From the NCBI RefSeq assembly GCF_058153355.1, contig NZ_CM177019.1: DNA of 64,000 bases. One strand, written 5' to 3'. The number at the start of each line of letters is the position of its first letter. The first letter of the stretch is position 1. Of this stretch, positions 9,001 through 12,000 are shown piece after piece. Made by a program: the position numbers.

Positions 9001-12000
9001 TGGTTCAGCACGCCGCTTTCGGTGGATACGGTTCCCTTCCCGCGTTTGATATCGCCTTCCCAGTGTGCCTGACCTTTCTTATGGATTGTCATTGTTGCTC
9101 TCCTGTGGGCTTAAAAAGGAAATTATAGACTACGTGAGAAACAGCATGAGGATAAGCGGGATATTCCGAATAGAATCCGGCGAAAATATTATCTATGTAC
9201 TTAAATAAAACTCCCACAATAGATAACCGGGAATATATAACTCAAGAGATATTGCATCAATATCAATCAACTCACACCAATAATATTCCCATTAATATCA
9301 TGGAGTTAAAATATAATAATCATCAACCAGGACTAATCTTAACAACGAAGCGGCAAATATTTGCCATGCTGAATGTGCTTTATAAATCTGCGATCCGTAG
9401 CAGACACCATAAATACACAGACACGGAGAATCACTATGTTTACTTATTATCAGGCAGAAAATTCAACAGCAGAACCCGCTCTGGTTAATGCCATTGAGCA
9501 AGGCCTTCGGGCAGAGCACGGTGTTGTCACTGAAGATGACATTCTCATGGAGCTGACCAAATGGGTGGAAGCTTCTGATAACGACATCCTCAGTGATATC
9601 TACCAGCAAACGATCAATTATGTGGTCAGTGGCCAGCACCCTACGCTTTAAGGTGCTATGCTTGATCGGCAACCTAATTTAGGGGTTTAGCACGTGTTTC
9701 TTCGCTACGGCGATGTTGTCCTTAAAACTAGCAACAGGATTGAGGAGTTAAAATGAAATCGAACCGTCAGGCACGTCATATTCTTGGACTGGACCATAAA
9801 ATTTCTAACCAGCGCAAAATAGTTACCGAAGGTGATAAATCCAGCGTGGTAAATAACCCAACCGGCAGAAAACGCCCCGCTGAAAAGTAATCTTTAACAA
9901 TCAGTCCTCAATGACGATTAAACACCATTGCCTGCGCAATGGTGTTTTTGTTTTTAACTGCTTTATACTTGGAGCCGACCCCCTGGCGGTAAAGCAAAGA
10001 CGATAAAAGCACCCCAGGGATGGATATTCAAAAAAGAGTGAGTGACATGGAACCAAAAACAAAAAAACAGCGTTCGCTTTATATTCCTTACGCTGGCCCT
10101 GTACTGCTGGAATTTCCGTTGTTGAATAAAGGCAGCGCCTTCAGCATGGAAGAACGCCGTAACTTCAACCTGCTGGGGTTACTGCCGGAAGTGGTCGAAA
10201 CCATCGAAGAACAAGCGGAACGAGCATGGATCCAGTATCAGGGATTCAAAACCGAAATCGACAAACACATCTACCTGCGTAACATCCAGGACACCAACGA
10301 AACCCTCTTCTACCGTCTGGTAAATAATCACCTCGACGAAATGATGCCCGTCATTTATACCCCTACGGTCGGCGCAGCCTGTGAACGTTTTTCTGAGATC
10401 TACCGCCGTTCACGCGGCGTGTTTATCTCTTACCAGAACCGCCACAATATGGACGATATTCTGCAAAACGTACCGAACCATAATATCAAAGTGATTGTGG
10501 TGACGGACGGCGAACGTATTCTGGGGCTTGGTGACTAGGGCATCGGTGGGATGGGTATTCCGATCGGTAAACTGTCGCTCTATACCGCCTGCGGCGGCAT
10601 CAGCCCGGCGTATACACTGCCGGTGGTGCTGGATGTCGGGACGAACAACCAGCAGTTGCTTAACGACCCGCTGTATATGGGCTGGCGTAATCCACGTATC
10701 ACTGACGACGAATACTATGAATTCGTTGATGAATTTATCCAGGCTGTGAAACAACGCTGGCCGGACGTGCTGTTGCAGTTTGAAGATTTTGCACAGAAAA
10801 ACGCGATGCCGTTGCTTAACCGCTATCGCAATGAAATTTGTTCTTTTAACGATGATATTCAGGGCACCGCGGCGGTAACAGTCGGCACACTGATCGCAGC
10901 CAGCCGTGCGGCGGGCGGTCAGTTAAGCGAGAAAAAAATCGTCTTCCTCGGCGCAGGTTCAGCAGGATGCGGCATTGCGGAGATGATCATCGCCCAGACC
11001 CAGCGTGAAGGATTAAGCGAAGAAGCGGCGCGGCAGAAAGTCTTTATGGTCGATCGCTTTGGTCTGCTGACCGACAAGATGCCGAACCTGCTGCCTTTCC
11101 AGACCAAACTGGTGCAGAAGCGCGAAAATCTCAGTGACTGGGATACTGACAGCGATGTGCTGTCATTGCTTGATGTGGTGCGCAATGTCAAACCGGATAT
11201 TCTGATTGGCGTCTCAGGACAGACCGGGCTGTTTACGGAAGAGATCATCCGTGAGATGCACAAACACTGTCCGCGTCCGATCGTGATGCCGCTGTCTAAC
11301 CCGACTTCACGTGTGGAAGCCACACCGCAGGACATTATCGCCTGGACCGAAGGTAACGCGCTGGTCGCCACCGGCAGTCCGTTTAATCCGGTGGTATGGA
11401 AAGATAAAATCTACCCCATCGCCCAGTGTAACAACGCCTTTATTTTCCCGGGCATTGGGCTGGGCGTTATTGCTTCCGGCGCGTCACGTATCACCGATGA
11501 GATGCTGATGTCGGCAAGCGAAACGCTTGCTCAGTATTCGCCGCTGGTACTGAACGGCGAAGGTCTGGTACTGCCGGAACTGAAAGATATTCAGAAAGTG
11601 TCCCGCGCAATTGCGTTTGCGGTTGGCAAAATGGCGCAGCAGCAAGGCGTGGCGGTGAAAACGTCTGCCGAAGCTCTGCAACAGGCCATTGATGATAACT
11701 TCTGGCAAGCCGAATACCGCGACTACCGCCGTACATCCATCTAAGCCTGCGCCCGGTAGTGACTGCTACCGGGCAATTTTCCTCTTCCTTTTTCAGATCT
11801 CATCCATACTGGGTAGTGGCGAATAAATCTCATTTGCCTCACCTGCTATGCAGAACATCATCCGAAAAGGAGGAAACTATGAAGGCTGCAGTTGTTACGA
11901 AGGATCATCATGTTGACGTTACGGATAAAACACTGCGCTCACTGAAACATGGCGAAGCCCTGCTGAAAATGGAGTGTTGTGGCGTATGTCATACCGATCT

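What the first reader, a model, noticed from the sequence alone, without database searches (positions are those of the whole stretch)
10536..10538. In-frame TAG inside the malic enzyme gene maeA
The maeA frame opened at 10047 stops at TAG 10536-10538 and resumes in the same phase at once (10539-10550 encodes GIGG, then GMGIPIGKL). The stop occupies the x position of the conserved malic-enzyme motif [13 protein letters not shown], which I recall as Gln (CAG) in E. coli, so a single C-to-T change would explain it. The 163-aa product would lack the NAD-binding and catalytic domains. This is either a null allele, a sequencing error, or a sign of an amber-suppressing background.
Basis: partly seen in the sequence, partly recalled or inferred. 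Interest (0 to 1): 0.6.

Follow-up and report, generated by a model that had tools for sequence, protein, structure and literature searches.

The report
Recurrent amber knockout of maeA
The malic-enzyme gene maeA in this E. coli window is genuinely broken by a single C-to-T change that creates a stop codon; the change lies at a DNA-methylation site known to mutate unusually often and has arisen independently in many strains, so it is a real but ordinary pseudogene.

Summary
maeA (10047-11744, +) has an in-frame TAG at 10536-10538 in place of Gln164 (CAG in every reference examined). Against the nearest complete genome, maeA differs at 26 nucleotides, and the only amino-acid change is Q164stop. 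A one-off sequencing error is unlikely: an SRA-derived contig is 100% identical to the window over 8.5 kb, TAG included, and the exact 163-aa product is on dozens of public contigs. The wild-type context is GA-CCAGG-GC, a Dcm site, and the mutated base is the methylated inner cytosine, the classic 5-methylcytosine deamination hotspot. The same C>T sits on at least 7 different maeA haplotypes. Three of them have wild-type twins that differ at only that base. In a same-gene control, the four Dcm sites gave 7-10 genuine amber alleles per 10 sampled places, against 0-3 for six non-Dcm nonsense sites (p=0.005). The truncation splits the enzyme's N-terminal domain and removes the NAD-binding domain, so this is a null allele. 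An amber-suppressor background cannot be excluded from the window, which has no tRNA genes. A second in-frame TAG, in ydcT, was also found. The mechanism is well known and interest is low.

The parts
10047..11744 (+). maeA (NAD-dependent malic enzyme, SfcA), full-length reading frame interrupted once; a pseudogene or null allele
   Evidence: It is 98.5% identical to annotated maeA of E. coli N96 in the same bdm-sra-maeA-adhP context. The wild-type translation matches PDB 6AGS over residues 1-565. There are 26 nt differences from N96, and the only amino-acid difference is Q164*.
10536..10538 (+). In-frame amber codon TAG replacing Gln164 (CAG)
   Evidence: All intact alleles examined have CAG here.
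10535..10539 (+). Mutated Dcm site: CTAGG in the window, CCAGG in wild type. The changed base, 10536, is the inner (5-methylated) cytosine of CCWGG
   Evidence: The context GACCAGGGC in L001-L003 versus GACTAGGGC in the window. Site enumeration.
10047..10538 (+). ORF for the 163-aa N-terminal fragment, which carries only part of the Pfam 'malic' N-terminal domain
   Evidence: The exact 163-aa sequence is in public data on at least 58 contigs. Its Pfam hit is PF00390 only.
10551..11744 (+). Residual 397-aa ORF from Met169, holding the rest of PF00390 plus the NAD-binding domain PF03949. It is probably not expressed as a functional protein
   Evidence: Read directly from the sequence, GGTGGG abuts the ATG with no spacer, so there is no well-spaced Shine-Dalgarno. 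This last point is an inference.
10286..10290 (+). Intact Dcm site CCAGG at Gln81. It is a latent amber site, mutated to TAG in other lineages including S. dysenteriae
10739..10743 (+). Intact Dcm site CCAGG at Gln232. It is a latent amber site, mutated to TAG in at least 9 other backgrounds
11341..11345 (+). Intact Dcm site CCTGG at Trp433. It is a latent amber site through deamination on the opposite strand (TGG>TAG)
11752..11780 (+). Terminator-like hairpin after maeA: CCCGGTAG ... CTACCGGG followed by CAATTTT. It suggests maeA is monocistronic, so the stop should have no polar effect on adhP
   Evidence: Read directly from the sequence. It was not scored with the terminator scan.

Best explanation
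This is a genuine, heritable loss-of-function allele of maeA. In wild type, the first base of the Gln164 codon (CAG) is the inner cytosine of a CCAGG site, the base that Dcm methylates. 5-Methylcytosine deaminates spontaneously to thymine. If very-short-patch (Vsr) repair misses the resulting T:G mismatch, the change becomes fixed as CTAGG and turns CAG into the amber codon TAG. Translation then stops after 163 residues. That fragment carries only part of the N-terminal domain. The rest of that domain and the whole NAD-binding domain lie downstream, so no active NAD-malic enzyme is made. What is shown here: the stop codon, the single-base origin, the Dcm context, the independent recurrence, and the excess over non-Dcm nonsense sites. 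What is inferred: that the site is actually methylated in this strain, that deamination rather than a replication error caused this particular event, and that the cell tolerates the loss because MaeB and PckA cover the same metabolic need.
For: 1. The stop is real and in frame, and references have CAG. 2. The sequence is reproducible. L019, from SRA run SRR31441161, is 100% identical to the window over 8,549 nt, TAG included. The exact 163-aa and 397-aa products are on 58 and 48 public contigs. 3. The wild-type context is CCAGG and the changed base is the inner C. 4. The mutation recurs. TAG sits on 12 maeA haplotypes in 7 or more clusters that differ by up to 78 nt, and the flanking SNPs at gene positions 477, 501 and 510 differ between backgrounds. 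TAG haplotypes L005, L010 and L006 each have wild-type twins among complete genomes at 3131 bits, which I calculate as one mismatch in 1698 nt. No complete genome carries the T (positive control). 5. A same-gene control holds selection constant. Genuine stops per 10 sampled places were 10, 10, 10 and 7 at the Dcm sites Q81, Q164, Q232 and W433. They were 0, 2, 3, 1, 3 and 1 at the non-Dcm sites Q130, Q140, Q202, Q203, W213 and Q236 (exact Mann-Whitney p=0.005). 6. The literature agrees: the inner C of CCWGG mutates C>T about 8-fold faster in E. coli and Salmonella assemblies (Cherry 2018, as summarised in PMC9520237; also PMC10710837). 7. The 25 other differences from N96 are all synonymous, so the gene was under purifying selection until recently. 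8. By Pfam, the 163-aa piece has only PF00390, and the downstream ORF has the rest of PF00390 plus PF03949.
Against: Across the whole window versus N96, transitions at Dcm hot positions (9/320) are not significantly more frequent than at other C/G positions (715/30,246; ratio 1.19, p=0.58). The hotspot is therefore not visible in old polymorphism. I attribute that to selection and to survivorship of constrained sites, but this is an interpretation. The raw contig counts of truncated products did not single out Dcm sites. The difference appeared only after contig-end partials were removed, and the counts of places are capped at 10 and sampled from the 24 longest contigs. Non-Dcm nonsense alleles of maeA also recur (2-3 backgrounds), so recurrence alone does not prove methylation. 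Neither dcm/vsr nor the methylation state could be examined from this window. L019 may derive from the same isolate or the same reads as the window, so it excludes an assembly error but not a systematic read error.
Confidence: 0.8

Rival explanations
1. Sequencing or assembly artefact: the true base at 10536 is C and maeA is intact.
For: It is a single-base difference. No complete RefSeq E. coli genome carries it. From my own knowledge, Dcm motifs are known sites of systematic nanopore consensus errors. The window also has two 1-nt indels relative to N96, one of them in an A7 run.
Against: An independently assembled SRA contig is identical over 8.5 kb, TAG included. The same TAG is present in at least 15 other contigs from different runs and lineages, all with contig-length patterns typical of short-read assemblies. 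The other differences from N96 look like normal polymorphism.
Confidence: 0.04
2. Amber-suppressing background: the strain carries a suppressor tRNA (for example a glnV/supE-type CUA anticodon), so UAG164 is read as an amino acid and full-length MaeA is still made.
For: A supE-type suppressor would insert Gln and restore the wild-type protein exactly (established knowledge). The window holds a second in-frame TAG, in ydcT at codon 182, also CAG>TAG. That makes two amber codons in about 55 genes.
Against: There is no tRNA gene in the window to support it. CAG>TAG is the commonest transition route to a stop: by my tally of the list, about three quarters of the 47 such sites in maeA give TAG. Two TAGs are therefore not unexpected once two nonsense mutations exist. 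Other pseudogene-type lesions (frameshifts in an LRR gene and in ydcY) show that ordinary gene decay is occurring. From general knowledge, suppressors are rare in natural isolates. The many other lineages with the same TAG make a shared special background implausible.
Confidence: 0.04
3. An ordinary replication-error C>T that only happens to fall in a CCAGG motif. It is a null allele, but methylation played no part.
For: Non-Dcm CAG/CAA/TGG codons of maeA also yield nonsense alleles in public data. The window-wide comparison shows no Dcm enrichment. The ydcT amber in the same window is at a non-Dcm site.
Against: Per site, Dcm positions yield at least 4-6 times more independent amber alleles than matched non-Dcm positions in the same gene. 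That is consistent with the published figure of about 8-fold. For an event at such a site, the odds therefore favour the methylation route by roughly 6:1.
Confidence: 0.1
4. Recurrent loss of maeA is adaptive, that is, positively selected inactivation as for antivirulence genes in Shigella. Selection, not mutation bias, would then explain why the allele is seen repeatedly.
For: Many kinds of maeA lesion exist in public genomes: frameshifts in L014-L017, nonsense at many codons, and Q81* plus deletions in 4.4-Mb genomes that UniRef names as S. dysenteriae. Sources label many carriers as Shigella.
Against: Selection for loss would favour all nonsense sites equally, yet Dcm sites dominate. Q164* is absent from at least 5,004 assessable complete E. 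coli genomes. Three TAG haplotypes are one mutation away from living wild-type alleles, as expected for young, short-lived alleles. The window itself shows no Shigella-like decay or IS load.
Confidence: 0.08

Closest known systems
Dcm-site (CCWGG) 5-methylcytosine deamination hotspots. These are the classic lacI amber hotspots (Coulondre and Miller 1978, from my own knowledge) and the methylation-induced hypermutation seen in natural populations (Cherry 2018, J Bacteriol 200:e00371-18, as cited in PMC9520237 and PMC10710837)
   Same: The mutated base is the inner C of CCAGG. The change is C>T. The reading frame places CAG so that the product is an amber codon. The event recurs independently, with a several-fold per-site excess over non-Dcm sites.
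   Different: This is seen in a chromosomal metabolic gene in natural isolates, not in a reporter gene. Methylation and the Vsr repair status of this strain were not observed. The excess is not detectable in old window-wide polymorphism.
E. coli NAD-dependent malic enzyme MaeA/SfcA (PDB 6AGS; Pfam PF00390 + PF03949)
   Same: The gene context is the same, the length is the same, and the protein sequence is essentially identical apart from codon 164.
   Different: The reading frame is interrupted at codon 164, so the predicted product is a 163-aa fragment rather than the 565-aa enzyme.
Amber alleles maintained alongside suppressors in laboratory E. coli K-12 lineages, such as rpoS(Am) with supE44 (from my own knowledge)
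   Same: It is a CAG>TAG change that a Gln-inserting suppressor would restore exactly.
   Different: There is no evidence of a suppressor here. The window is about 1% or more divergent from every complete RefSeq E. coli genome, so it is not a K-12 derivative.

Membership tests
NAD-dependent malic enzyme MaeA (functional gene) | Sequence orthology to E. coli MaeA and conserved genomic context (bdm-sra-maeA-adhP) | tested here: met
   It is 98.5% identical at the nucleotide level to annotated maeA. The neighbours are the same. PDB 6AGS aligns over residues 1-565 at E=0.
NAD-dependent malic enzyme MaeA (functional gene) | Uninterrupted reading frame encoding both the N-terminal (PF00390) and NAD-binding (PF03949) domains in one polypeptide | tested here: not met
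   There is a TAG at codon 164. The domains are split between the 163-aa and 397-aa ORFs.
Dcm 5-methylcytosine deamination hotspot mutation | The ancestral sequence is CCWGG and the mutated base is the inner C (or the G paired with the inner C of the other strand) | tested here: met
   GACCAGGGC in all intact alleles versus GACTAGGGC in the window.
Dcm 5-methylcytosine deamination hotspot mutation | The change is a C:G>T:A transition | tested here: met
   CAG>TAG.
Dcm 5-methylcytosine deamination hotspot mutation | Independent recurrence at the site, in excess of comparable non-methylated sites | tested here: met
   At least 7 backgrounds. One-mismatch wild-type twins for three haplotypes. Dcm sites gave 10, 10, 10 and 7 genuine stops per 10 places, against 0-3 for non-Dcm sites, p=0.005.
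Dcm 5-methylcytosine deamination hotspot mutation | General excess of transitions at Dcm positions in this genome's divergence from relatives | tested here: not met
   9/320 versus 715/30,246, ratio 1.19, p=0.58. Old, selection-filtered polymorphism is a weak read-out of mutation rate, so this lowers support only slightly.
Dcm 5-methylcytosine deamination hotspot mutation | The strain encodes active Dcm (and Vsr), and the site is methylated in vivo | not testable with these tools
   dcm-vsr lies outside the 64-kb window, and no methylation data are available.
Amber suppression / stop-codon read-through | Presence of a tRNA with a CUA anticodon in the genome | not testable with these tools
   ARAGORN finds no tRNA gene in the window. 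The rest of the genome is not available.
Amber suppression / stop-codon read-through | Several conserved genes carrying in-frame TAG while otherwise intact | tested here: inconclusive
   Two of about 55 genes do so: maeA Q164 and ydcT Q182. Frameshifted genes are also present, which fits ordinary decay.
Sequencing or assembly artefact | The variant is not reproducible in independent data | tested here: not met
   L019 is identical over 8,549 nt, TAG included. The same TAG appears in many other runs.

The most novel reading that the evidence does not exclude
The strain carries an amber suppressor, or otherwise reads through UAG efficiently. Both in-frame TAGs in this window (maeA Q164 and ydcT Q182, each CAG>TAG) would then be tolerated because full-length proteins are still made. 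That would make this a natural E. coli isolate with a supE-like background.
Probability: 0.04. Interest if true: 0.6.

Novelty: already known. Interest (0 to 1): 0.2.

Why it matters
In practice, this strain should be treated as maeA-null, relying on MaeB and PckA for the malate/oxaloacetate-to-pyruvate/PEP step. Annotators should mark the gene as a pseudogene rather than as two short genes. More generally, it is a clean natural illustration of a textbook mutational hotspot. In the same gene, with the same phenotypic consequence, amber alleles at the four Dcm sites arise several times more often than at non-methylated codons. About half of the Dcm sites in this window's coding sequences (60 of 125) are latent amber codons. 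None of this changes current understanding.

Tried and rejected
1. Raw contig counts of predicted truncated products as a measure of hotspot strength. Dcm and non-Dcm sites looked alike (58-195 versus 20-149 contigs). I rejected the measure once I saw that most non-Dcm 'truncations' are genes cut by contig ends, not stop codons.
2. A window-wide test for excess transitions at Dcm positions versus N96 showed no enrichment. I report it as a negative result.
3. The idea that maeA is unusual in having all four Dcm sites in the amber-generating frame is rejected. 48% of coding Dcm sites in the window are in that frame, P(4/4) is about 0.05, and several other genes show 3/3.
4. Spread of one TAG-bearing patch by recombination is disfavoured. 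Flanking SNPs 13 nt upstream and 11-20 nt downstream differ among backgrounds, and three haplotypes have one-mismatch wild-type twins.
5. A Shigella-type genome in decay is not supported. All the ddp, fdn and nar operon genes checked are intact, and none of the window ORFs I scanned against NCBIfam matched a transposase.
6. A literature search for maeA + pseudogene + Shigella found nothing. Cherry 2018 (PMC6256030) is not held in the library, so I cite it through papers that summarise it.
7. I looked for a suppressor tRNA in the window and found no tRNA gene.

Full report
**Observation**

The window carries maeA at 10047-11744 on the + strand, in the usual E. coli context ddpXABCDF - osmC - bdm - sra - maeA - adhP - higB/yddM - fdnIHG. 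The frame that opens at ATG 10047 is 1698 nt long, the same length as annotated maeA. It reads ...ILGLGD, then TAG at 10536-10538, and continues in phase as [12 protein letters not shown]... to TAA at 11742-11744. Three reference alleles have CAG (Gln164) at this codon.

**Which organism**

The window is an E. coli-type chromosome segment but is not in the complete RefSeq set. The best match is 99.0% over the first 25 kb and 98.5% over maeA, to strain N96. It is not a decaying Shigella-type region. I compared 55 genes with N96. The only in-frame stops were maeA Q164, ydcT Q182 and the normal selenocysteine TGA of fdnG. There were also two frameshifts, in a leucine-rich-repeat gene and in ydcY.

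**Is the stop real?**

- The exact 163-aa N-terminal fragment and the exact 397-aa downstream ORF are both in the public protein collection, on 58 and 48 contigs. The sources name them malate dehydrogenase or partial, from S. sonnei, S. flexneri and E. coli.
- One SRA-derived contig (L019, run SRR31441161) is 100% identical to the window over 8,549 nt, TAG included. This rules out an assembly slip. If the run is a different isolate or library, it also rules out a read error. I cannot tell whether it is the same isolate.
- Of the 26 nucleotide differences between the window's maeA and N96, 25 are synonymous and the 26th is the nonsense change. The gene was therefore under purifying selection until recently.

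**Why this codon**

In every intact allele the context is GAC CAG GGC, which contains CCAGG, the recognition site of the Dcm methyltransferase. The mutated base is the inner cytosine, the one Dcm methylates. 5-Methylcytosine deaminates to thymine. If very-short-patch repair fails, CCAGG becomes CTAGG, and in this frame CAG becomes amber. This is the mechanism behind the classic lacI amber hotspots (my own knowledge). [quoted passage not shown]

**Recurrence**

The public contigs that encode the same 163-aa fragment are not the window's lineage. Their maeA differs from the window's by 69-78 nt and from each other by up to 46 nt, yet all have TAG at codon 164. Counting the window and its twin L019 as one, there are 12 TAG-bearing haplotypes in at least 7 clusters.

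Flanking SNPs at gene positions 477, 501 and 510 differ among backgrounds. A shared recombination patch would therefore have to be shorter than about 25 nt.

Three TAG haplotypes (L005, L010, L006) each hit complete wild-type genomes at 3131 bits, which I calculate as one mismatch in 1698 nt. No complete genome carries the T: a 55-mer centred on it finds nothing, while the same 55-mer with C finds 5,004 of 5,426 genomes. The single mismatch must therefore be the C>T itself. These are independent, recent events on living wild-type haplotypes.

**Control for selection**

maeA has 47 positions where a transition creates a stop. Four of them are Dcm hot positions: Q81, Q164, Q232 and W433. I looked up the exact truncated product expected at several sites.

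Raw contig counts did not separate the two classes. Inspection showed why: at non-Dcm sites most hits are genes cut off by the end of a contig, not stops.

I then counted only genuine in-gene stops among the 10 places returned per query.

| Site class | Sites | Genuine stops per 10 places |
|---|---|---|
| Dcm | Q81, Q164, Q232, W433 | 10, 10, 10, 7 (Q164: 15 of 15 over two queries) |
| Non-Dcm | Q130, Q140, Q202, Q203, W213, Q236 | 0, 2, 3, 1, 3, 1 |

- Every change at the Dcm sites was exactly the one deamination predicts. Each of Q81, Q164 and Q232 sat on 7-9 backgrounds.
- The separation is complete (exact Mann-Whitney p=0.005).
It is consistent with the published figure of about 8-fold.
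- All these mutations are nonsense changes in the same gene, so selection is held roughly constant.

**A test that did not support the model**

Across 60 kb aligned with N96, transitions at Dcm hot positions (9 of 320) are no more frequent than at other C/G positions (715 of 30,246; ratio 1.19, p=0.58). My reading is that old polymorphism has been filtered by selection and that the CCWGG sites which persist are the constrained ones. In maeA, all four have the hot base where a change is a nonsense mutation. That is an interpretation, not a result.

maeA's 4-of-4 amber-generating frames is not special either. 60 of 125 coding Dcm sites in the window are in such a frame, and several other genes show 3 of 3.

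**Consequence**

The wild-type protein is essentially identical to the solved E. coli MaeA (PDB 6AGS). By Pfam, the 163-aa fragment holds only part of the N-terminal malic domain. The rest of that domain and the whole NAD-binding domain lie in the downstream 397-aa ORF. From my own knowledge of human ME2, the catalytic Tyr (in YTPTVG) lies upstream of the stop and the catalytic Lys (in GIPIGKL) lies downstream, so neither piece should be active.

The ATG at 10551 has GGTGGG directly against it, with no proper spacing for a ribosome-binding site, so efficient re-initiation is unlikely (inference). A terminator-like hairpin at 11752-11780 suggests there is no polar effect on adhP (read from the sequence). 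Loss of MaeA is expected to be tolerated because MaeB and PckA overlap in function (established knowledge, not tested here).

**Rivals**

- **Sequencing artefact (0.04).** This is contradicted by L019 and by the many other runs with the same stop.
- **Amber-suppressor background (0.04).** This cannot be tested, because the window has no tRNA genes. The second amber, in ydcT, raises it slightly. However, CAG>TAG is the commonest transition route to a stop, and frameshifted genes in the window point to ordinary decay.
- **Methylation-independent replication error (0.10).** This cannot be excluded for a single event, but the per-site excess puts the odds against it at roughly 6:1.
- **Adaptive loss of maeA (0.08).** This does not explain why Dcm sites dominate, nor why the allele is absent from at least 5,004 complete genomes.

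**Comparison with what is known, and verdict**

This is an instance of a well-described phenomenon, a Dcm-site amber hotspot, in a well-known gene. The allele itself is already in public databases. I found no paper that mentions maeA pseudogenes in Shigella, but that reflects lack of interest rather than novelty. The finding is real, correctly read by the first stage, now mechanistically explained, and ordinary. Interest is 0.2.

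Noticed in passing
window 51803-51805 (minus strand); ydcT = 52348..51335: There is a second in-frame amber codon in the window. ydcT, the ATPase of the ydcSTUV ABC transporter, has TAG at codon 182 where N96 has CAG. The context is CAA-TAG-TCT, which is not a Dcm site. The gene is otherwise full length (1014 nt). The same stop occurs in SRA contigs L087 (2 mismatches in 4.5 kb) and L086 (12 differences within the gene, with ydcS also split).
   Followed up: partly
window ~23005 (gene 22274-23523, +): A leucine-rich-repeat protein gene is frameshifted relative to N96 by loss of one A in an A7 run (A7>A6). 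This leaves a 246-aa ORF instead of 416 aa.
   Followed up: partly
window ~22033 and ~22117 (gene 20921-22212, +): The neighbouring LRR gene carries a 30-nt expansion of an ATCCTC hexamer repeat and an 8-nt duplication (TTACATTT) near its 3' end relative to N96. These changes alter the C-terminus.
   Followed up: no
window ~47334 (ydcY, 47283-47517, minus strand): A 1-nt insertion (an extra C) relative to N96 shifts the frame of the small gene ydcY.
   Followed up: no
window 17691-17693 (minus strand, fdnG 18278..15231): fdnG has an in-frame TGA at codon 196. The same codon is present in the N96 reference. It is the normal selenocysteine codon of formate dehydrogenase-N, not a defect.
   Followed up: yes
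window 34643-38298: This region differs from N96. N96 has IS remnants, a group II intron and a T6SS Vgr/PAAR island here. The window instead has a 658-aa ORF (35178-37154) with no NCBIfam match and a 365-aa GGDEF diguanylate cyclase (37201-38298).
   Followed up: no
L015 (GCA_902845715.1, CADHAK010000164.1), maeA codons 163-164: Another public genome has a 2-nt deletion at exactly the same Dcm site (GGTGA--AGGGC), which frameshifts maeA. Other lineages inactivate maeA in other ways: L014/L022 (CP027347.1), L016 and L017 (AP027467.1) carry frameshifts.
   Followed up: no
L045, L048, L050 (CP061527.1, UAUQ01000013.1, CP026786.1; the two CP records are ~4.4-Mb chromosomes, UAUQ01000013.1 is a 0.63-Mb contig): The Q81 amber allele of maeA, at another Dcm site, occurs in 4.4-Mb complete genomes together with further deletions of the gene. 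UniRef names the fragment as from Shigella dysenteriae. It looks like an older, fixed maeA pseudogene in that lineage.
   Followed up: partly
whole window, coding sequences: 60 of 125 CCWGG sites inside genes (48%) lie in a frame where deamination of the methylated C gives TAG. About half of the coding Dcm sites are therefore latent amber codons.
   Followed up: yes
Logan/ENA contigs L025-L033, L036-L043, L067-L073, L077-L083, L090-L098: Many public short-read contigs end at the same few positions inside maeA. This produces recurrent 'partial' proteins that mimic nonsense alleles in protein-level look-ups. It is a caveat for anyone counting truncated proteins in these collections.
   Followed up: yes
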